A DNA stretch of 63,843 nucleotides, the filler included, from Vermamoeba vermiformis (Eukaryota), in assembly GCA_045837725.1 (NCBI GenBank). It is 8 parts of 8 records of this genome, joined end to end, with 100 filler letters (N's around TTAATTAATTAA, not from the genome) between each part and the next. Parts side by side here need not be neighbours in the genome. Positions count along the whole stretch, not along the records: positions 34,112 to 44,761 come from JBEWZL010000023.1; 7 more parts are not named here. The stretch is one strand, 5' to 3'. Below, in pieces: positions 34,012 through 44,761 of this stretch. Under the pieces are notes generated by a model. That model had not been told where the DNA came from. It did not search any database and saw only the letters and a list, made by a program, of their open reading frames with translations. The position numbers and the translations under genes are program-made. Numbering within the stretch: position 1 is the stretch's first letter; each line of letters starts with the position of its first letter.

Positions 34012-34111
34012 NNNNNNNNNNNNNNNNNNNNNNNNNNNNNNNNNNNNNNNNNNNNTTAATTAATTAANNNNNNNNNNNNNNNNNNNNNNNNNNNNNNNNN
34101 NNNNNNNNNNN
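34012..34111. other. Artificial contig linker
   Basis: N44-TTAATTAATTAA-N44. Confidence 0.98.
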
Positions 34112-35377
34112 CGTAAAAAGAGATAAAGGAAAATTTCGGCATGATTTTTTTGCGCGTTCCGACAGTTTGCACTGTCAATAATGACTCTTTATATGCAACA
34201 CATATTGTTTATTAATGAGGCAAAACGAGATTAAAATTGGTAGTGAGTGGCAATCGCATCTGAATGTGGCACGTGCCCGTTGTGATTAACAAACAGATGT
34301 TCAAATGCTAGTATATGATCTAGGGTATTTTAGCAGTGTATAATAGATATAATTAACAGCTGTGCTCGTTTTTGTGGCAAATTATGAGATCAGATGTGAG
34401 ATTAGGCCTCGGCGAATTTTGCTCCGTTAAATAATAGTCGTAATATCTTTAATACTAATAATCAATATATTTTTGAGCATTTGATTACACAAGAAAAATT
34501 TCTGGAGCGAATATTTTTTAAAAGATCGGATTGACGCTTTGCCTGCATAATTACTTCGTTTTTATCAATAATTTGAATGTTTTATAATCAATATAGCTAG
34601 GTTTAGCCCATTAGATTTGTTTGAGAGCAATCTGTCGAATTAAATGAGATCGGCAGTGCCTGCTGTATTACTCCATGACGTAATGAGAGTTATACTATTC
34701 TCTCAAAATTTAACAAGCTAATACTTTGCCCTTAAGGGCTAACCCCTGCAGGATCAGGGGCCGGATGTAGTTGTTTTTCAAACATGCTTGTAAGCACAAC
34801 AATTGTACATCGACATTATCAAGATACAGCCGCAGTTTCAACCAAAAAGATGCACTACTAATAGAGAAACCTTCGTGTTTCTTGTGCCCGGCTATTTCCT
34901 TTTTTGTAAAAAAGTATATTTTCTCATGCAAAATTTTTTCTGTTAGTATCTCTTCTTTTCGTAAAAAACCATCACGCAGCAGGATATATATTAATGGTAT
35001 TGTGCTTGCAACAATTTTTGCTGCAGATCCGTTGCTGGATGTGGCTGTAAAAAATTTCAAAGTTTAATTAGAGCCGACTAGCAAATTAACGGCGTCATAT
35101 ATTTTTTGGGCCACTAAACCCACTAAAATTATCCGATGGTGGTCAAATTGACTTCACGGTTCTCGAATCTCGTGGGCACAACCGGAAAAATGAACCTTAA
35201 CAATTTTGAAATGCCGTAAATTATAATTTAAAATGTCCTTGCAGCAGCATGCATTATTTCAATTAATTTTATCATAAATTTTCCTTTATCTCTTTTTACA
35301 ATAGTCATCAATGATCGCATCTGGACTTTTCTCTGTTGTCCATCGATGTGCAATAGGCTGACATTTTATACTTATAG

Positions 35378-38300
35378 GAGAAGTTATTGGCTTAGCAATA
35401 ATCACAATTTCTGAAGCTGCGGTCACCGGAGTCGGATTAGCCTTTTTGATCACTTACGCGCGATATTTGCCTAAAACACCGAAAGTAATCAAGCCAAAAA
35501 TATACTCAGTGTATATATCTATCTGTTGGTTTCTCATTCAATGGTTTCCGCATGCTCAATTACGTAAGTTTGTTACGGGTTATCTCGCGCGAGCACGATC
35601 TAATTTTACGGATGGAGAATCTTTATTTAAATAAATCATACGAATATAAGAATCATAATGGCAGTGATACCATATAAAGATGATTAATAAGCTAATATGT
35701 GCTTTTAGATAAAATGTTCGGGCCAGATGTGAACGCCTTGATCTCGCTCGAAATGACTTTTCATTGGGTTAATGTCGTTGCGTTAAGTATATTAGCATAC
35801 TACCAATTTGACATTATGATGTTGTGCATGGCGTAAGTTAAATAGGCTAATTCCCAATCGAATTCTAAATTTTTATGTTTTTTTTCGGTGGATCCGACCC
35901 ACAACTAAATTTATCTTATTTTTTATCGTCTTCGTAATACAATACCTTAATTAAGTATTTTGATATGATTTAACTGTACGATATTGGTCTGATATTGAAC
36001 TTCTATTTTTAGCCTCACTCGCACGAAAGAAAATTTGGCTCGTTTGGAAAAAGGAGAAAAAACGCGCGAAGAACAAGACCGAGACAGCAATATGAACGCG
36101 AGTCCTATCAAACGATTCTTCTTGAACACCAAGGTCCACGTAGTCCTCATAGTCATCGTTTTCTTTTTCGCCTTGTTCTTTGGTGTTCAAAGGTAAGAAA
36201 AGTATTCACTGCAGATCCGTTTAAGGAAATTTCTGCAAAGATAACAGGTGATGACATTTTGACTCCATGTTTGACACGTGTCATTTGCAGAGGATTTCCT
36301 AAGTCTCCTTTTGAACTAACTGAAGTCCAAGCTGGTTTGTTGATTGCTGTTGAGGTACGACTGTTATATATTTCGCAGTCGACTGTAACAATAAAATTAC
36401 GTTTTTCAACATAGAACGACCACACTTATATCTTAAAGTTATATTTCTGTACAAAGTGGTCCCTGAATTGACGGCAATTGATGCGAAGTGCCGTAACTTT
36501 TGGTTGGTAAGCCAGATGCTGGATTTGTTTTTTCTGATCTTCGCATCACAACAAAATTAACGACTAATTCCATCGCGATAAATCATAATATTAATAATAG
36601 AGTGCCTCGTAAGCAATTACAAGCACTTTTGAATTATTTTGAATTATTTTTTAAAATTAACGCCTCCGATCTGTTCGGCCATTGTGCTGCAACTATTCGG
36701 GTCGTACTTTCGATTTGTAACACTCTTATTAATACAATCTTATTGATAGGTGTGCGACTTCATATTGAGAAGATTTTGTACAGGCGATTTAGGGGACCCG
36801 GACTCTATTGTTTGAGTTTTTTCTGCCATCTTTGTAAACAAATTCCAGTAAATTTCGCACAATAGTGGTGAGTTATTATCACTTTATACATGGCTAATGA
36901 TTACTCAGTTTATTTTTGATGTGTTAGATCCGAACCACACGCGACCTCGAAAAGTGCCTCGGCAATGGCCAAAGTAGTAAACCTTGGTGCCACATGCTAC
37001 ATTAGCAGTTCTTTACAGCTATTATTTAGTATTGAAGCTTTCCGTGAGCTTGTTATATCATCAAAACCTACACACAAACTTGCGATTGAATTTCGACAGA
37101 TTATCACACTTATGAAGAGTAATAAAACAATTCATATCGAACCATTAACAAGGCTATTGAAAATATCAAAAGCAAGCTACCAAAAAGAACACCGTGATTT
37201 ACAAGAGTTTCTGCTCAATTTATTGGACAAGTTAACTGAAGACTCTGAGTTCAAGCGAATTATAAAGCAAGTTTTTGGTGGTGCCTTACAACGTAATGGT
37301 TCAGAATTAATGGAGCCTTTTATAGGTACAAATGACTGCTGCAACTCGACTTAATTTCAATTGACTTTATAATTTAGATATTTCAATTCCAGTTGCCCCC
37401 GGCAATGTTGTGGACAGTTTAGTTCAACTTTTCAGCAGTGTACGTAACATTTGCATAAGACTTGGATTTTAACTTATTCAATGATAAGGACTGGGGTTCA
37501 CACAAATTTTTGACATTCCCCACTGCATTAGTCCTCCACCTTAAGCGTTTTGATAATCTGGGCAACAAGAATGAAGCGAAGTTTCACTTCAAGTCAACTC
37601 TAGTTATTCCAGCAAAGCTCAGTTGTAGTGGTCATGCAGAGACCTACCAACTCAAATCAATAATAGTGCACCAAGGAACTGCTAAACAGGGTCACTACGT
37701 AACCTACAGCCTTGCGAACAACCAATGGCTTGAACTCAATGATGCAGTCGTCTCAAAGGTAGTCAAAGTATGCCATTTTGCAGGTTCTAACCTCAATGTA
37801 GGCTCCCAAAGACTTCATGCAGAGGTTATTTGAGGGAATTGCAAGTGCTTATATCTTAGTGTACTGCACACAGCGTATTTCATCCCCAACCAAGTCCAGA
37901 CCCACACGAATTATTGGAAATGAATCACAGCAATTTAATGATTTTATGGAATGGGACTCAACATCATGTCAAAGTGATCCAATAGAGATATCAGATAGTG
38001 AATATGAAGCAAACGAAAGTGATGATATGAGTGAATCAATTGAAGAAGATAATGAAGAGACATCAGAAGTCGCAAGTCCTGCAGCAGTGAAAGAAGGTAT
38101 TGATTTCTCATTCATTAATCATTTTGATAACCATTACTGGCAGCTAAACTTCAAGCAAAACTGTCTGGGTGGAAAAACGATGGGAGTAAATTCAAGCCCA
38201 AAACTTCTCAACCATTGACAAACCCAGGACCAAAGCACCAGCTCATCTTAACAAAAATTAATGCAATACGTCATCAACTGGGAAAGCCAAAACTGTCTTC

Positions 38301-41036
38301 AACACTACGTGTCACAGAGCTTGACTGTTACTTACTTATGATGAATGACATAATTGAACATATTGAAAAAACAACAGATGCAAATCTGCACATCAAAGCA
38401 GTCGATTTGCGCGCTTATCTTGGTGTTAGAATTGCACAACAATTATCGCCAGGTCATTCTGTTGATGACTCTTGGGCCTCCTTTTTGCATTCACGCGCCA
38501 TGTGGGGCAACAGGTGGATTGCTAAAACAATGCTAAAAGATGAATTCAAGTTTATACACCGGAACAAAAAGTAAGTTCGTTGTTCACTCACTGTAATGGT
38601 TCTTACCTTTGGTCTTAGGTATGATGTGTACTTTGTTTGGGCAGCTCTGAATCAAACCTACTCAGAAATATGGGTGCCATTCAGCCACCTTGCTTTAGAT
38701 GATAAAGCAAATGCTTGGAAAGGAAGGTCAATTTACAAGATTTACAGATTACGCAAGCCATTCCCTTGGGCAATGTTAGAATATGTCATTATTGATGAAA
38801 GTGGATGGATGTCTGGCTTCATTCCTCGATATGGACTGTTTGCTACCATAACAGACAAGTTCAAGAAATGGCGAGAGTTATATCACGCCTTCAAAACAGG
38901 TCAACTTTCGCAAAGACCTCTACCATTTAAAACAATGTTTCCACGAGCATCAAAGACAAATTTCGATTTGGAAAAAGCCGTCAGTTTTTTATTGTCAAGA
39001 CTCCCTGACAAACAAAGGCACGTTTATGACTTTATTAGAGAACCCACAAATTATGAAGAATGGAACAATCTGACAACTCGAAACTTATCACACTATCATG
39101 TATTTTGTGACAGAGAGTTTTCCTCACTATGGCAGCACCTGCAAAAGCACAATATTGGATACACTGTTGGCATTATTGGAACATCACACCCTAACCTGTT
39201 TCAAAACAACCTTGCTCATTGTTTACAGCCAGGACAATGGCGCAGCTTAACAAACGACTCAGATATCATCATGTCATTCTATGACCCTCAAGGCAAGACC
39301 TGTCACTGGGCTAGTAATCGAGGAACAGCAGCCTCAATTTCTGAAAAAGTAATTGATGGAAACAAAAAGAAAAAGCTTGCATACTCTGCTCCCCACTTGG
39401 TGCAACAATATCGGACATACTTCAGTTCTGTGGATAAGCATAACTCCAAAGCCAAGAAGTTTAAGTGGCCCTACCGGATTCGAAAAGTAACAGAGCGCTT
39501 AGTATTTGCAGATTGGGAGCGCTCTGCTCAAGTTCAGGCAGAAACACTCTTCAAAAGACTCACCAACAGTGATATTCCTGCCAAGAAATTTCTTGCCAAT
39601 TTAGCGCGCTCCCTGGTAGAGGAATTCCAATCAAAAAGGAAACGAAACTACACAATAGAAGCGTTAGATCTTGTGCGCGCCAGTGGAAAGCATAATCCAT
39701 ACACCCACACCTGTGCGTACGAATTTGGCAACTCCAAGCGTTGTTTCTTTTGTCAAACTCAAAAGATATCTTCTTCTACACTGTAAGTATGTGTAGGTGT
39801 ACTTTTGTCAAACTAATTAATTGCCTTAGCTACAAGTGCATTCAGTGCAAAGTTGCCTTACACAAGAAGTGCTGGAAGAAATTCAAAGGTGTAAATCTTT
39901 AAGTTTTGTACAAGGAGTTATCAGTTAACTATTGTGTGAATAGCATGTAACACGTTGTGGTGTAGCATGAGCACGAAAGTGCCTGAGGCGGCTTTGACGC
40001 AAAAAACCTCGTGTGTAGGCACTGAGAGTTTGGGGATAGTCAGCTTGCTTCAGATTTATTCACATAATCACCTGCTAGGCTAACTGTTAGTAGCATGTAA
40101 CACGTTGTGGTGTAGCATGAGCACGAAAGTGCCTGAGGCAGCTTTGACGCAAAAAACCTCGTGTGTAGGCACTGAGAGTTTGGGGATAGTCAGTTTGCTT
40201 CAGATTTACTCAACAGACGATAGCCTGGGCTACTATTGAGCTTATTTATGAGAAATGGGAGCAGCCATGTCCAAATTCTGGTACGTCTACCGTGTAGACT
40301 TCCAGTTGGTTAAGGAATATATTCAATAATACTTAACTATGCAATATTTTTTGCTCGGAAACTGGATCTAACAGATTTTTTTACTAATCGTGTTAGGTTG
40401 TGGCTTCGATTACATTTGGTATAGGTGCCGCATTTGCGATATTAATGGCGATTAATATTTCTCGGAATATTGCGCCACGCTATCAAAGAACTGCTTGGGC
40501 GAGTTACGTAGCGATCTGCTACATCTTTTTGACTGATTATTTCCACGGCAAAACGCACGGAATTTTGCGCCCCGACGACTATATCGTACGTATATAATAT
40601 GATTTGGTATGAATGCGTGCTAATGATGATTTTTTAGGGCTTAATCATTGTCGAAATTTTCTTCCACATCGGAGTTACTGCAGCAGCATTCATTTTGATC
40701 TATTATCAGCGAAAAGTAATTAAAGCTGCTTGGGTGAAGCGTCAGAGTACGTACTTTCGTTTCTTACTAAATTTTTGTCCACGGTGGATCCGCACGTTGC
40801 AACTTCTGGATCTACCTATCTAATGATTTAAAGTCATATTTAATAGCATATACTAACAATAGCCGACATCTTCTTAATATTTTAGCATTTGCGAGTGTTT
40901 CAATTGCACATGTACTAATGGATTTGTTTCACGAACCATAGAGCGCGATGTCGTTGGCACATCCGTCACACTTTCCACTTCTGCGGGTGGAAATCAATCT
41001 TCGAGCACTAGGCGTGATGAAGAAGCCGAAAAATAA
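35378..41036 (+). CDS. Polytopic His-rich membrane protein, paralogue A (first exon not located; intron 36355-40396 holds a transposon gene)
   Basis: Exon-by-exon similarity to 41333-44619: EAAVTGVGLAFL, WFPHAQLH, EMTFHW, DYFHGKTH, FFHIG. Confidence 0.8.
36965..39902 (+). CDS. USP deubiquitinase - piggyBac-type transposase fusion protein (copy 2)
   Basis: USP motifs: VVNLGATCYISSSLQ, HRDLQEFL, LVLHLKRF, IIVHQGTAKQGHY..WLELND, AYILVY. Introns 37326-37377, 37440-37488, ~37759-37801, 38097-38143, 38571-38618 and 39783-39829 keep one frame. Transposase motifs: DLRAYLG, LALDDKANAWKGR, VFCDREFSS, YRTYFSSVDKHN, and CFFC..CIQCKVALHKKC; TAA at 39900-39902. Confidence 0.9.
39941..40212 (+). repeat. 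Two ~122-bp direct repeats (period 150) downstream of the transposase
   Basis: 39941-40062 and 40091-40212 are nearly identical (about three mismatches seen). Confidence 0.95.
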
Positions 41037-41332
41037 TAGGGTTCTTTTGTATTGTACAAATTTGTTGCAATCTGATGCGGCAAAATAAAATTTTGTAATT
41101 TAGACCAGATCTTGCTTTTTTAACAATTCGGATTAGTTGATGATTAGCTGCACTATTGCTAATTATGAAATTAACATGCAATTGCTATATCACGCAATGT
41201 ATCAGAAGAGATGCTGATAGAGATTCACATATTGGATTGTGATTCGTCTCATTCTCCCATCGATTACTGAATCGCGTGACATTCATTTTCGAAACTGGTA
41301 GTATAACGAACACAATAGACAATAATACAGCC

Positions 41333-44300
41333 ATGTCGGAGCCTCTCGCGAGATCCCAAAACAACTTGGATGTAGGCACGCCTGGGAAAGCGAAGAAAAA
41401 GTGCAAGATAACGAAATGGCTGATAATTAAGATCTGCATTGTAGTCGTGATATCCTTTTCTCTGTTCTTCATAGCACAATATGCTATCCCAAGTTCTCCT
41501 CCGCCTCCAGGAGGACGAGATCCGACACAAGGTATGTCATACGACCGTTAATGAATAATTCTGCCTCTGGATCGCTCATTTAATTAATTAAATATGATAG
41601 TAATTGTATTAGTGTCCTATAATTTGCGTAGCGAAAGTTTCTAATTTTATGTCAGATCTTCGTTTACCTGAAATTTAAGAAACAAATATCTTTTACGTAA
41701 TATTAACCATTATTTAATATAGGAGAGATAGTGGGGTTAGCTATAATTAATTTATCAGAAGCAGCGGTTACGGCTGTGGGATTGGCCTTCTTGGTCTCTT
41801 ATGCTCGGTATTTACCTGGGACTCCTTCTATAATCAAGCCCAAAATATACTGCATTTATATAGCAGTATGTTGGTTCTTGATTGAGTGGTTTCCTCATGC
41901 TCAATTACGTAAATTAATGTCAAACTGTCGACATCCAAAAATCGATCTGAAATTTTTCTGTTGTAATCAATTCAATTCGCCTTATTAATTCCGTGAATAA
42001 TTATAATATTGATAGATAAGATGTATGGACCAGACGTGAATGCGAACATCGCGCTTGAAATGACTTTTCATTGGATCAATTTGGTTGCGTTAAGCTTGCT
42101 CGCGTACCATCAATTCAATATAATGTTATTATGCATGTTGTAAGTTAATATAAGCTCAAGTCGGGTTGCGAATGCGTTTTATAATCCTTCGTAGAAATTT
42201 CGATCTTCGTACCAATTATTTTTCCGGGGATAGCCTTATTTATTCTTATTGCGCACATTGCAGTTTTTAAACCTTTATAATCAAATCAATTGATATTAGG
42301 TTGACCAAAGTGAAGGAGAACTTAGCGCGGTTGGAACAAGGCGAAAAAACGATCGACGAAGAAAGAGAAGCGCTGCACCGAAAAAATCCAATCAAACGAT
42401 TCTTTTTGAATACTAAAGTGCACGTAGTATTAATTACTATTGCATTTTTCTTCGCCTTGTTCTTTGGGGTGAGAAAGTAGGTGCCCTGTTTTGACACGCA
42501 GTGAAAATAAGTCCGCGTTGAAACCACGTTCCGCAACGCAACGTTGCCAACACAGTTGATGGTTCCACGACACAACGCAACTGTAAAGACACGAAATGCT
42601 TTGATCTATTAATGCCACCCTTTAGGGCATGGTATGCAACTTAAAGCAAGCAGACAAAGCTCGTCCTACTGCGGATCTCGGTGCCCGCTGCCACTTTCGT
42701 TCACAATATTAGAAGCGCCATTGTTTAAATACTGTAACATTGCTAATTTGAACGGATTTTCGGTTTTTTAGAGTTTTGCACTGAAGACACGAAGTTGATC
42801 TGAAAAATTAGGAGCGGATTTGATTTGTCTTTTAGCGACTTTCCGCAGCTTAAAATATGCTGACGAGCTAGAAAGATACATTTGTGAGTATATCCTATCA
42901 AACGACCGGACAATCAGTCATAACAGTGCCCTGATCGAATTTGGATGGAGTAGCTCAAATGAGCGAATCTACGGTTGGGAACTCCAATTACCATATTTGT
43001 ATTATTCCAATGCATTTTAAAGTAACTACGTACTCCTTTCTGTGCCTTAAACCTCAAAACTCCCCTTGTTGTAATCTTGTGCCGAGGTGCGCGCCTAATT
43101 CGAAAAATTTATTTTAAATTTTCAAAACGCGTGTGACGACACAAAGCAGCAAAAATGGCCGGCAAACAATAAGTTATTTAAGGTTAGTATCTACTCCACT
43201 ACATTTGGCGAGTAACTACCAGACGTGCTGCAGCACAGCCAAGTTATCTGCCGAGATTTGACTTCAACAATTTATTCTGAAGCCAAATACCATAAAAGCA
43301 AAAGGTAAATATTTATATATAATATATTAGGGAAGAAATCCCCAAAATTAATTTTCTCGCACGAGTTGAAAAAGTTTGATCATCCCATAAATTCGCATAA
43401 TGTGACCTTTTACTAAACCAATGCTCTTATTATTTATTAATAAATTGTTCAGGGAACTGCCAGCGCCCAACTTACGGATGAGAAACTCGGATGAAGCCCA
43501 ACAAGTTTTTTCAGCGCATCTTGCTCTGGCAGGGTTGTTGTTGTTGTTGAAAAATATCAAAACCCCAAAGCCCTTCCAGATCACCAGAAAGAAGCTCCGA
43601 AGTTCAACGTGGCACAACTTAGCACTTTTGGACCGACCGAAATAAATGCTAAGTTCTAACCGAGCTTGTTTGAGACTTCGTATTTTTTTAGTCGTAACCA
43701 GCGACGAATGGTACTACTGCATTCCGCAACGCCCAAGGTTGCGCAACATTTTTTTTTTCAACGTTGTAAATTTTTTGGCACGCAACGTTGCGTTGCAGAA
43801 CGCGGTTTCAACGTTTACTTATTTTTACCTGTGGAAAGATATAACTTGCACCGTACTCGTTGATTCAACTAAAGCCATTCGCTATTATTATTAACTATAA
43901 TACGATAATAGGGCAATTCCAACTGCTGCTTCAGAAGTAACAGAAGTTCAAGCCGGACTTTTGACAGCGATCGAGGTACTGACTTTGAGACCCATTTCTG
44001 AATTCTGTATTTAACCAATATGTATGTAGGTGGTTGGAGCACTTACCTTTGGAATAGGTGCATCATTTGCTATTTTAATGGCGATCAATATCTCTCGCAA
44101 TATTGCGCCGCGGTATCAAAAAGTAGCGTGGGCGAGTTACGGTGCAATTTGCTACATTTGGCTCACGGACTACTTTCACGGAAAAACACACAATAGTATG
44201 GCTGGTGATGATTATACCGTACGTTTAATTTGAATTTATTCATTCTATGGCTTGGATCCGGCTAACTGTCTAACTAATACCAATTTCAGGGCCGTATTAT

Positions 44301-44619
44301 TGTTGATATTTTCTTCCATATCGGAGTTACTGCCGCAGGTTTCGTCTTGATTCATTATCAGCGAAAGGTTATCAAAGCTAATTACGAAAGACGTCATAAT
44401 AGTAAGTGACATATTGACCCTTTACATTCTTTCACTTTGCTCAGCGTCGTTCACTGAAATTTCATGTTTCTTCGTCAAGATTATTCCCTCAGTGAGGAGA
44501 ATTGATCTTTCCTTTTTATAGAACGAGTGGCGACATCAGTGACGCTGTCAACTCAAGGAGCTAATCCATCTGGCAGCGCGGCAACGAAGCCCGATGATTC
44601 GCAGCCTGAGAAACTATAA
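41333..44619 (+). CDS. Polytopic His-rich membrane protein, paralogue B
   Basis: MSEPLARSQ.. first exon with a TM helix; WFPHAQLH, EMTFHW, DYFHGKTH, FFHIG; stop at 44617-44619. Confidence 0.82.
42504..43825. mobile_element. Non-autonomous TIR element (~1.3 kb) in an intron of paralogue B
   Basis: 44-bp imperfect inverted repeats at 42504-42547 and 43782-43825. Intron is 1435 nt against 98 nt in paralogue A. No TSD seen. Confidence 0.7.
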
Positions 44620-44761
44620 GCGCGGACAATTGTTTTATTATACGAGGCATAATAGTCTCAAAATTGTATTTTTAGTTTAGTTTATTTACCAGAGATCTGA
44701 AAAAATTCTTTGACCCGCTTTGCCGCCCAATCTTGTTGTGCTGCTTAAAATGGAACGGATA

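What the first reader, a model, noticed from the sequence alone, without database searches (positions are those of the whole stretch)
36355..40396. The USP-transposase unit sits in a host intron whose paralogous intron is empty
Seen: exons ..GLLIAVE | VVASITFGIG.. are 4042 nt apart in paralogue A, but ..GLLTAIE | VVGALTFGIG.. are 54 nt apart in paralogue B. Inference: USP and transposase moved together as one mobile unit after the gene duplication. Same-strand insertion could also allow exon-trap chimaeras as in CSB-PGBD3. A ..GGTTAA at 40308-40313 is a plausible right end, but no matching left TIR was visible, so the ends may be decayed or atypical.
Basis: partly seen in the sequence, partly recalled or inferred. 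Interest (0 to 1): 0.75.

Follow-up and report, generated by a model that had tools for sequence, protein, structure and literature searches.

The report
Young piggyBac transposon with fused deubiquitinase
A recently spreading jumping gene of the piggyBac kind has landed in a host intron; unusually, its cut-and-paste enzyme is fused to an intact-looking ubiquitin-removing protease and it inserts at ATAT rather than the textbook TTAA.

Summary
The intron contrast is real: 4042 nt in paralogue A, 54 nt in B. The insert is a 3945-bp piggyBac-superfamily transposon (36372-40316) flanked by an ATAT duplication. The genome holds 10 near-full copies differing by 0-2 nt, so it moved very recently; a ~90%-identical second copy of gene A has the same intron empty. 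One six-intron frame (883 aa) joins a USP domain (C11, H210, N225/D226) through an acidic linker to a DDD transposase and cysteine-rich domain. Three further families (two here, one metagenomic) keep the fusion and the right end; USP stays 39-58% identical while synonymous sites are saturated, so it is selected cargo. No in-frame host-to-USP acceptor exists, so a CSB-PGBD3-like chimaera is unsupported; the two RNA runs tried did not map. Best reading: piggyBac-type cut-and-paste with a tethered deubiquitinase that protects the transposase or strips ubiquitin from nearby chromatin (inferred, untested). Proteases are known cargo of other transposon superfamilies; ten paper searches found no USP-piggyBac and no ATAT-specific piggyBac family. 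New variant of a known kind.

The parts
36291..36354 (+). Host gene A exon ending ..GLLIAVE (multi-pass membrane protein; 0 of 8 exon pieces of genes A/B reach a Pfam cut-off)
36355..40396 (+). Host intron, 4042 nt; 93 nt without the element and one ATAT; homologous intron 86 nt in the C156 copy, 54 nt in paralogue B
36368..36371 (.). Left target-site duplication ATAT
36372..40316 (+). Transposon, family A, 3945 bp; 10 near-full copies in the genome, 0-2 nt differences
36372..36385 (+). Left terminus, degenerate inverted repeat (8/14 to the right terminus; 10/14 in family B, 6/14 in C, 13/14 in non-autonomous E)
36868..36927 (+). Candidate 60-nt 5'-UTR intron of the element (GT..AG; predicted only); its acceptor is out of frame for the host donor
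36965..37325 (+). Exon 1: start codon, USP Cys box (N6, catalytic C11 at 36995-36997), D78/Q80
37378..37439 (+). Exon 2 (USP)
37489..37758 (+). Exon 3: USP His box (H210 at 37693-37695; N225/D226 at 37738-37743); an alternative donor at 37768 adds 3 codons
37802..38096 (+). Exon 4: end of USP and acidic Ser/Thr-rich linker (20 D/E in residues 271-330)
38144..38570 (+). Exon 5: N-terminal part of the transposase
38619..39782 (+). Exon 6: catalytic core with D499 (38698), D636 (39109), D744 (39433) and first Cys pair of the C-terminal domain
39830..39902 (+). Exon 7: rest of the cysteine-rich domain (C863, C866, H871, C874) and stop
39935..40212 (.). Two subterminal direct repeats, 128 nt, 96% alike, 150 nt apart; a similar pair in families B and C
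40285..40299 (.). Subterminal palindrome (6-bp stem, 3-nt loop); a stem at this place is predicted in 4 of 5 families, with other letters in family C
40303..40316 (+).
40317..40320 (.). Right target-site duplication ATAT
40397..40582 (+). Host gene A exon VVASITFGIG..
43976..44029 (+). Homologous empty 54-nt intron of paralogue B

Best explanation
An autonomous, recently active DNA transposon of the piggyBac superfamily inserted into an ATAT near the 5' end of a small host intron. SHOWN: ends, ATAT duplication, copy number, one open spliced frame with USP and DDD motifs, conservation of the fusion in four families. INFERRED from piggyBac biochemistry: the transposase binds the two unequal ends (the invariant right end with its repeats probably carrying most of the recognition), cuts through hairpin intermediates with a 4-nt stagger, and integrates at the palindrome ATAT, which like TTAA would allow footprint-free excision. 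INFERRED for the cargo: the N-terminal USP, captured once from a cellular USP, is an active isopeptidase tethered by the acidic linker and kept because it helps the element. Most likely it removes ubiquitin where the transposase sits: from the transposase itself (escape from degradation, about 0.35) or from chromatin at the element or target (counter-silencing or access, about 0.35); another modifier or self-cleavage about 0.1; no catalytic role about 0.2. For the host gene the insertion is more likely neutral-to-disruptive than a source of a new fusion protein.
For: Copies: 10 of 28 matches span nearly the whole element, 0-2 differences, 3 variable positions. Target: ATAT at 13 of 13 left and 16 of 16 right ends with flank in hand, and at both ends of element E; background 0.0075 per position. 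Empty sites: at a paralogous site on C44 the one-ATAT reconstruction aligns without a gap at the junction (score 239 against 226 and 225); C156 agrees weakly (175 against 171). Family: profile hits only piggyBac 6x67 (E 3e-7) and piggyBat 9c0f in PDB, the fold search gives the same entries (E 2e-6 to 2e-5); D499 aligns to D268; D499, D636 invariant in 13 of 13 rows and D744 in 12 of 13. Fusion: frames of 883, 887, 889, 887 aa in families A-D; B and D share all six intron sites with A. Selection: USP 39-58% identical, pN 0.26-0.41, pS 0.76-0.88 (saturated), against 21-33% in the linker; N6, C11, D78, Q80, H210, N225, D226 kept in 4 of 4. The four USP-bearing transposases form one branch (SH-aLRT 100, quick tree).
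Against: No RNA evidence: 0 reads laid from two RNA runs, so splicing across the USP-transposase junction is predicted, and the models of B-D were chosen by likeness to A. The USP lacks about 25 residues of the finger region, including both Cys pairs seen in host USPs, so ubiquitin binding may be weak or changed. No substrate evidence at all. The structure model is mediocre (pLDDT 56; TM 0.3-0.4). Some joins across the repeat look misassembled: two copies share one right flank over 1400 nt, and the left flank of L007 continues into unrelated DNA at its element-free homologue, so 9 right flanks and 7 left flanks, not 10 sites, are distinct. No contig piece listed spans the whole insertion. Mechanism at the ends is by analogy only.
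Confidence: 0.72

Rival explanations
1. Exon trap as in CSB-PGBD3: the host donor at 36355 splices into the element and gives a host-USP-transposase protein.
For: Same-strand insertion in an intron. Two internal acceptors of the element (37489, 37802) are phase 0 like the host donor, so a host-transposase fusion is formally possible. PGBD3 precedent (PMC5381638, passages).
Against: Both acceptors upstream of the USP ATG are out of frame; the in-frame internal ones skip the catalytic Cys. The host part is a membrane protein with several hydrophobic segments, a poor partner for a nuclear enzyme. The element has its own ATG about 590 nt inside the left end in families A-C and this copy is identical to mobile copies elsewhere, with no sign of domestication.
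Confidence: 0.07
2. USP and transposase are two separate genes (or a cleaved polyprotein) carried by one element.
For: No RNA or protein evidence for the fusion; a long low-complexity linker lies between them; no fused protein was returned by the protein searches, whose databases hold exon-wise calls for these loci.
Against: The frame stays open through the linker after removing short GT-AG introns at the same places in four families 55-72% alike; no stop or conserved internal start is seen.
Confidence: 0.1
3. The USP is a passive passenger or a catalytically dead ubiquitin-binding module; the element is an ordinary piggyBac with hitch-hiking DNA.
For: USP evolves faster than the transposase (39-58% against 55-72%); finger region shortened; related transposases show no USP in their called frames (0 of 46 other proteins).
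Against: All catalytic and oxyanion residues are kept in 4 of 4 families despite saturated synonymous sites; a passenger would have decayed like the linker.
Confidence: 0.1
4. Loss from B, or an assembly artefact, rather than insertion into A.
For: The assembly breaks or misjoins at this repeat in several places; C80 repeats the left flank and ends one base before the duplication.
Against: The flanks on both sides are the consecutive exons of one gene, colinear with two empty homologues; copies are 99.95% or more alike while A and B exons are about 75% alike; no contig joint skips the element.
Confidence: 0.03

Closest known systems
piggyBac-like elements (Trichoplusia ni piggyBac, PDB 6x67; piggyBat, PDB 9c0f)
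   Same: DDD triad, C-terminal cysteine-rich domain, acidic region before the core, 4-bp palindromic duplication, unequal left and right ends (PMC7351741 passages).
   Different: ATAT instead of TTAA in every copy; termini begin with T, not the conserved C; left repeat degenerate; six introns; N-terminal USP. PMC5381638 (section 10 and passages) reports ATAT only for single copies and ascribes such cases to mutation. PMC13461360 (passages) filtered for TTAA-like sites and two-mismatch TIRs, so family A would probably have been dropped; it reports fusion domains in 4.6% of clusters, and its Supplementary Fig. 4 and file 2 could not be read.
Protease-bearing transposons: HLE2 Helitron-like elements with UCH, OTU or Ulp1 domains; Ulp1-bearing MULE, CACTA, Zisupton and OTU/Ulp1-bearing Ginger
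   Same: A ubiquitin or SUMO isopeptidase domain stably carried with the transposase (UCH in HLE2 subgroups c and d: PMC11417382 passages; the other superfamilies are recalled, from no call).
   Different: Here the carrier is a piggyBac DDD transposase, the USP is N-terminal and minimal (about 255 aa), and the element is intact and still multiplying.
CSB-PGBD3 exon-trap fusion
   Same: piggyBac-type element in sense orientation in a host intron (PMC5381638 passages).
   Different: PGBD3 is a fixed, domesticated copy with an in-frame acceptor; this copy is one of ten near-identical mobile copies and has no in-frame acceptor before its ATG.
Cellular USPs of the USP34/USP24/USP9 kind (MEROPS C19, Pfam PF00443)
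   Same: Cys box best matches USP34 (7w3r, E 7e-10); His box matches Ubp8, USP36, USP28 and others (22 sequences); three host USPs with the same Cys-box type match at 21-24%.
   Different: No flanking domains, finger Cys pairs missing; the donor gene cannot be named at this distance. A shortened finger region recalls CYLD (recalled, not tested).
Repbase/Dfam subgroups 'piggyBacA' / 'piggyBacX'
   Same: Recalled only: subgroups of divergent piggyBac-like elements, one of which I recall as having an ATAT-like target.
   Different: Could not be checked: no TE library here, the search for these names gave no description and the review I recalled is not held. The ATAT target may therefore already be on record in Repbase.

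Membership tests
piggyBac superfamily | PF13843 transposase with D268/D346/D447 equivalents | tested here: met
   Pfam E 3.8e-11; PDB hits only piggyBac and piggyBat; D499, D636, D744. The D450 equivalent is N747.
piggyBac superfamily | C-terminal cysteine-rich domain | tested here: met
   C847, C850, C863, C866, H871, C874; 68-85% identical among four families.
piggyBac superfamily | 4-bp target-site duplication | tested here: met
   One ATAT at an empty paralogous site, two at the filled one; 13/13 and 16/16 ends.
canonical piggyBac-like elements (PBLE) | Target is TTAA | tested here: not met
   0 of 29 ends examined have TTAA; all have ATAT.
canonical piggyBac-like elements (PBLE) | TIR of 12-19 bp starting with C | tested here: not met
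   Termini start with T; left-right match 8/14 (A), 10/14 (B), 6/14 (C), 13/14 (E).
piggyBac superfamily | Hairpin intermediates and footprint-free excision | not testable with these tools
   Needs an excision assay; inferred from PMC7351741 (passages).
USP / peptidase C19 | Cys box, His box and Asn/Asp with oxyanion Asn | tested here: met
   N6, C11, H210, N225, D226 in 4 of 4 families.
USP / peptidase C19 | Complete finger subdomain for distal ubiquitin | tested here: not met
   Gaps of about 8 and 17 residues against host USPs remove both Cys pairs.
USP / peptidase C19 | Isopeptidase activity | not testable with these tools
   Needs a biochemical assay.
CSB-PGBD3-type exon trap | In-frame 3' splice site ahead of the element's reading frame | tested here: not met
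   Acceptors 37 and 10 nt before the ATG, both out of frame for the phase-0 donor.
CSB-PGBD3-type exon trap | Chimaeric transcripts | tested here: inconclusive
   0 reads laid from RNA runs X15 and X17; no test.
Helitron-like elements | Rep-helicase, no target duplication | tested here: not met
   No such domain; 4-bp duplication. Considered only because of the subterminal stem.
Repbase piggyBacA/piggyBacX subgroups | Phylogenetic placement and target of those subgroups | not testable with these tools
   No reference sequences or description available.

The most novel reading that the evidence does not exclude
An undescribed, deep piggyBac lineage of microbial eukaryotes that has changed target (ATAT), relies mainly on one invariant end, and carries a tethered, finger-less deubiquitinase as a counter-defence that removes host ubiquitin marks from the transposase or from chromatin at the moment of transposition. 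It would be an intact, active system in which the role of transposon-borne proteases can be tested by one point mutation.
Probability: 0.4. Interest if true: 0.8.

Novelty: new variant of a known kind. Interest (0 to 1): 0.62.

Why it matters
Ubiquitin and SUMO proteases turn up in several transposon superfamilies, but why elements keep them is largely open. This family is intact, young (0-2 differences among ten copies) and small, so wild type against a catalytic-Cys mutant is a direct test. It also shows that piggyBac-type 4-bp targeting can be fixed on ATAT across several families, which bears on how the enzyme reads its target and could give a gene-transfer tool with a different site preference. 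Surveys that demand TTAA and clean TIRs would miss such elements. The intron insertion itself is ordinary.

Tried and rejected
RNA: no RNA holder listed; two same-label RNA runs laid 0 reads, no test. Empty allele of copy A: no joint skipping the element in contigs of X1 and X3; the empty intron seen in X3 matches the C156 copy. Two other flanks seen were not found in the assembly, so they gave no empty site. Of six flank searches, two found only themselves, one only the shared L005/L006 flank (55), one an uninformative partial hit (87), two gave element-free homologues. Fused proteins in databases: none among 2897 candidates of 680-2000 aa and one unrelated stand-alone USP among 8000; weak evidence, as these databases call the loci exon by exon. 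Phage and viral collections: no match. Three 517-607-bp 'MITE-like' copies (C219, C270, C126) have true ends but garbled, homopolymer-rich middles; treated as probable consensus artefacts, not as MITEs; their ends are among the 13 and 16 counted. Rejected: GGTTAA as right end; ATAT as part of the element; Helitron-type movement. The tree is the quick one; the careful run did not finish; 23 of 46 non-USP proteins were put in it, chosen as the longer ones. The subterminal stem had no shuffle control. Earlier findings by place and by sequence: none. Paper searches without a describing paper.
Full report
Observation. The window is eukaryotic, with introns of about 45-55 nt; I did not determine the organism. 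In gene A the exon ending GLLIAVE stops at 36354 and the exon VVASITFGIG starts at 40397; the intron between them is 4042 nt. In the tandem paralogue B the same intron is 54 nt, 43976-44029. Inside the long intron, on the same strand, two exons match Pfam UCH (E 1.3e-15, 8.8e-18) and one matches DDE_Tnp_1_7 (E 3.8e-11).

Ends and copies. A search of the own genome with 36300-40450 gave 28 matches, 10 of them nearly full length, the window's copy included. The shared sequence runs from 36372 to 40316 (3945 bp); the copies differ from the window's by 0-2 bases, at three positions in all: one in an intron, two changing an amino acid. Seven copies have both flanks, three lie at contig starts. Nine right flanks and seven left flanks are distinct; L005 and L006 share 1400 nt of right flank, and contig C80 repeats the window's left flank and ends one base before the element's flank repeat, so the assembly is unsure at this repeat. 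In run X1, single contigs inside the element have depth about 6000 against about 350 outside (table 8), which suggests more copies than were assembled; the tool warns that depth is no copy number.

Target site. ATAT stands at 13 of 13 left ends and 16 of 16 right ends for which flank was in hand (left out: four left ends and one right end cut by contig ends); ATAT occurs at 0.0075 of positions in the window. Three element-free homologues were examined. At a paralogous site on C44 the reconstruction with one ATAT aligns without a gap at the junction (score 239, against 226 with none and 225 with two). At the C156 homologue of the window's site the same choice wins narrowly (175 against 171); at C77 the left flank runs into ATAT and then into unrelated DNA. 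ATAT is therefore a 4-bp target duplication.

Timing. Contig C156 holds a colinear copy of genes A and B, about 90-94% identical around A and 83% over the later part of B; its intron is empty and 86 nt long. It is either a second haplotype or a segmental duplicate; I cannot tell which. Either way the insertion is younger than that split and far younger than the A/B duplication (exons about 75% alike). Loss from B is not needed.

The gene. Removing six GT-AG introns of 43-52 nt gives one frame of 883 aa from ATG 36965 to stop 39902: USP (about 1-255), an acidic linker, the transposase core and a cysteine-rich tail. USP residues N6, C11, D78, Q80, H210, N225 and D226 are in place; the Cys box is closest to USP34 among solved structures. 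Against three host USPs (21-24% identity) the domain lacks about 8 and 17 residues holding both Cys pairs of the fingers. The transposase profile matches only piggyBac (6x67) and piggyBat (9c0f) in PDB; a model of modest confidence (pLDDT 56) finds the same entries. D499 aligns with D268; D636 and D744 sit in the motifs of D346 and D447.

Relatives. The genome holds two more families with the same build: B (one copy, 3881 bp) and C (three copies, about 3850 bp), and a 1161-bp non-autonomous element E. A metagenome contig, L068, holds family D. Frames of 887, 889 and 887 aa result; B and D share all six intron sites with A, C lacks one and has one extra. These models were guided by likeness to A. 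The right 14 bp are identical in A-D; the left end matches them at 8, 10, 6 and 13 of 14 positions in A, B, C and E. A short stem is predicted just inside the right end in 4 of 5, with different letters in C (no shuffle control), and two long direct repeats precede it. USP is 39-58% identical between families with pN 0.26-0.41 and pS 0.76-0.88, the transposase 55-72%, the linker 21-33%; the catalytic residues are kept in 4 of 4. Among 1.84 billion representatives 37 proteins match the core, 10 at E below 1e-10. In a quick tree the four USP-bearing proteins form one branch (SH-aLRT 100) and join six divergent proteins apart from 17 more ordinary piggyBac-like ones. A USP profile hit none of the 46 transposase-related proteins held, but these are frame calls that may miss upstream exons.

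How it works. Shown: a multi-copy element with fixed ends, ATAT duplication and an intact frame. Inferred from the piggyBac structures (PMC7351741, passages): hairpin-mediated excision, 4-nt staggered integration, specificity read from the unpaired tetranucleotide, and an asymmetric complex; ATAT is palindromic, so seamless excision would still work. Inferred for the USP: it is selected, probably active, and acts where the transposase brings it, on the transposase itself or on nearby chromatin; I put these at about 0.35 each, another modifier or self-cleavage at 0.1, no catalytic role at 0.2. Nothing here identifies a substrate.

Exon trap. The host donor is phase 0. The two AG sites between the last in-frame stop and the USP ATG lie 37 and 10 nt upstream, both out of frame. 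Two internal acceptors are phase 0 but skip C11, and the host part is a membrane protein. Two RNA runs under the same species label laid 0 reads, so there is no transcript test. A 4-kb intron among 50-nt introns more likely harms gene A; paralogue B and the C156 copy remain.

Comparison with print. PMC5381638 (section 10 and passages) gives TTAA and a terminal C as the rule and ATAT only in single copies. PMC13461360 (passages; four supplementary files searched, one unreadable, figures not seen) filtered for TTAA-like sites and reports fusion domains, without naming USP in the text I could search. PMC11417382 (passages) reports UCH, OTU and Ulp1 domains in Helitron-like elements. PMC5751038, PMC2872659, PMC3627910 and PMC9004415 (passages) held nothing on this. 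Ten searches (listings only, apart from the papers named) found no USP-piggyBac and no ATAT-specific piggyBac family; the library lacks most subscription papers and Repbase, and I recall, unverified, a Repbase subgroup with an ATAT-like target. Earlier scan notes describe USP domains on Mutator and Helitron transposases in other genomes; they are unchecked leads and make the cargo look recurrent rather than unique.

Verdict. A real, young piggyBac-superfamily element; not a canonical PBLE (target and termini fail), not an exon trap on present evidence. The intron insertion is ordinary; the USP fusion with ATAT targeting, kept across four families, is the finding. New variant of a known kind, interest 0.62.

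Noticed in passing
window 34113-35299: About 1.19-kb element with a perfect 24-bp inverted repeat in the first intron of gene A, absent from the C156 copy; possibly longer imperfect ends and GATC on both sides.
   Followed up: partly
window about 42503-43829: About 1.33-kb insertion with long CAG..CTG inverted ends in an intron of paralogue B, absent from the C156 copy; no clear target duplication.
   Followed up: partly
window 35300-44700; G000:C156:141900-146495: Genes A and B encode a multi-pass membrane protein of no Pfam family (0 of 8 exon pieces); three different insertions sit in this copy of the pair and none in the C156 copy.
   Followed up: partly
L067:354-1514 (G000:C291): 1161-bp non-autonomous element with 13/14 terminal repeat, ATAT on both sides and the same subterminal repeats; no coding remnant.
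   Followed up: yes
L011, L013, L035 (C219, C270, C126): 517-607-bp copies with true ends and garbled middles; probably assembly or polishing artefacts at real insertion sites.
   Followed up: partly
L050 (G000:C301): A distant (20-24%) transposase relative with several stops in the matched frames, whether introns or damage not resolved; no USP match seen.
   Followed up: no
window 34012-34111; L034 (C80): C80 overlaps the first 2256 bases of the contig after this gap at 100% and carries gene A's first exon, so it looks like the true left neighbour, rather than the contig placed before the gap.
   Followed up: partly
P0042, P0045, P0046, P0006, P0008, P0009; L069: A divergent sister group of piggyBac-like transposases (24-31% to the core) from metagenomes and assemblies, without USP in the called frames; ends and targets unknown.
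   Followed up: partly
run X3: A water metagenome of another study holds family A with no differences listed inside the element and a left flank not found in the assembly; may be a new insertion site or an unassembled one.
   Followed up: partly
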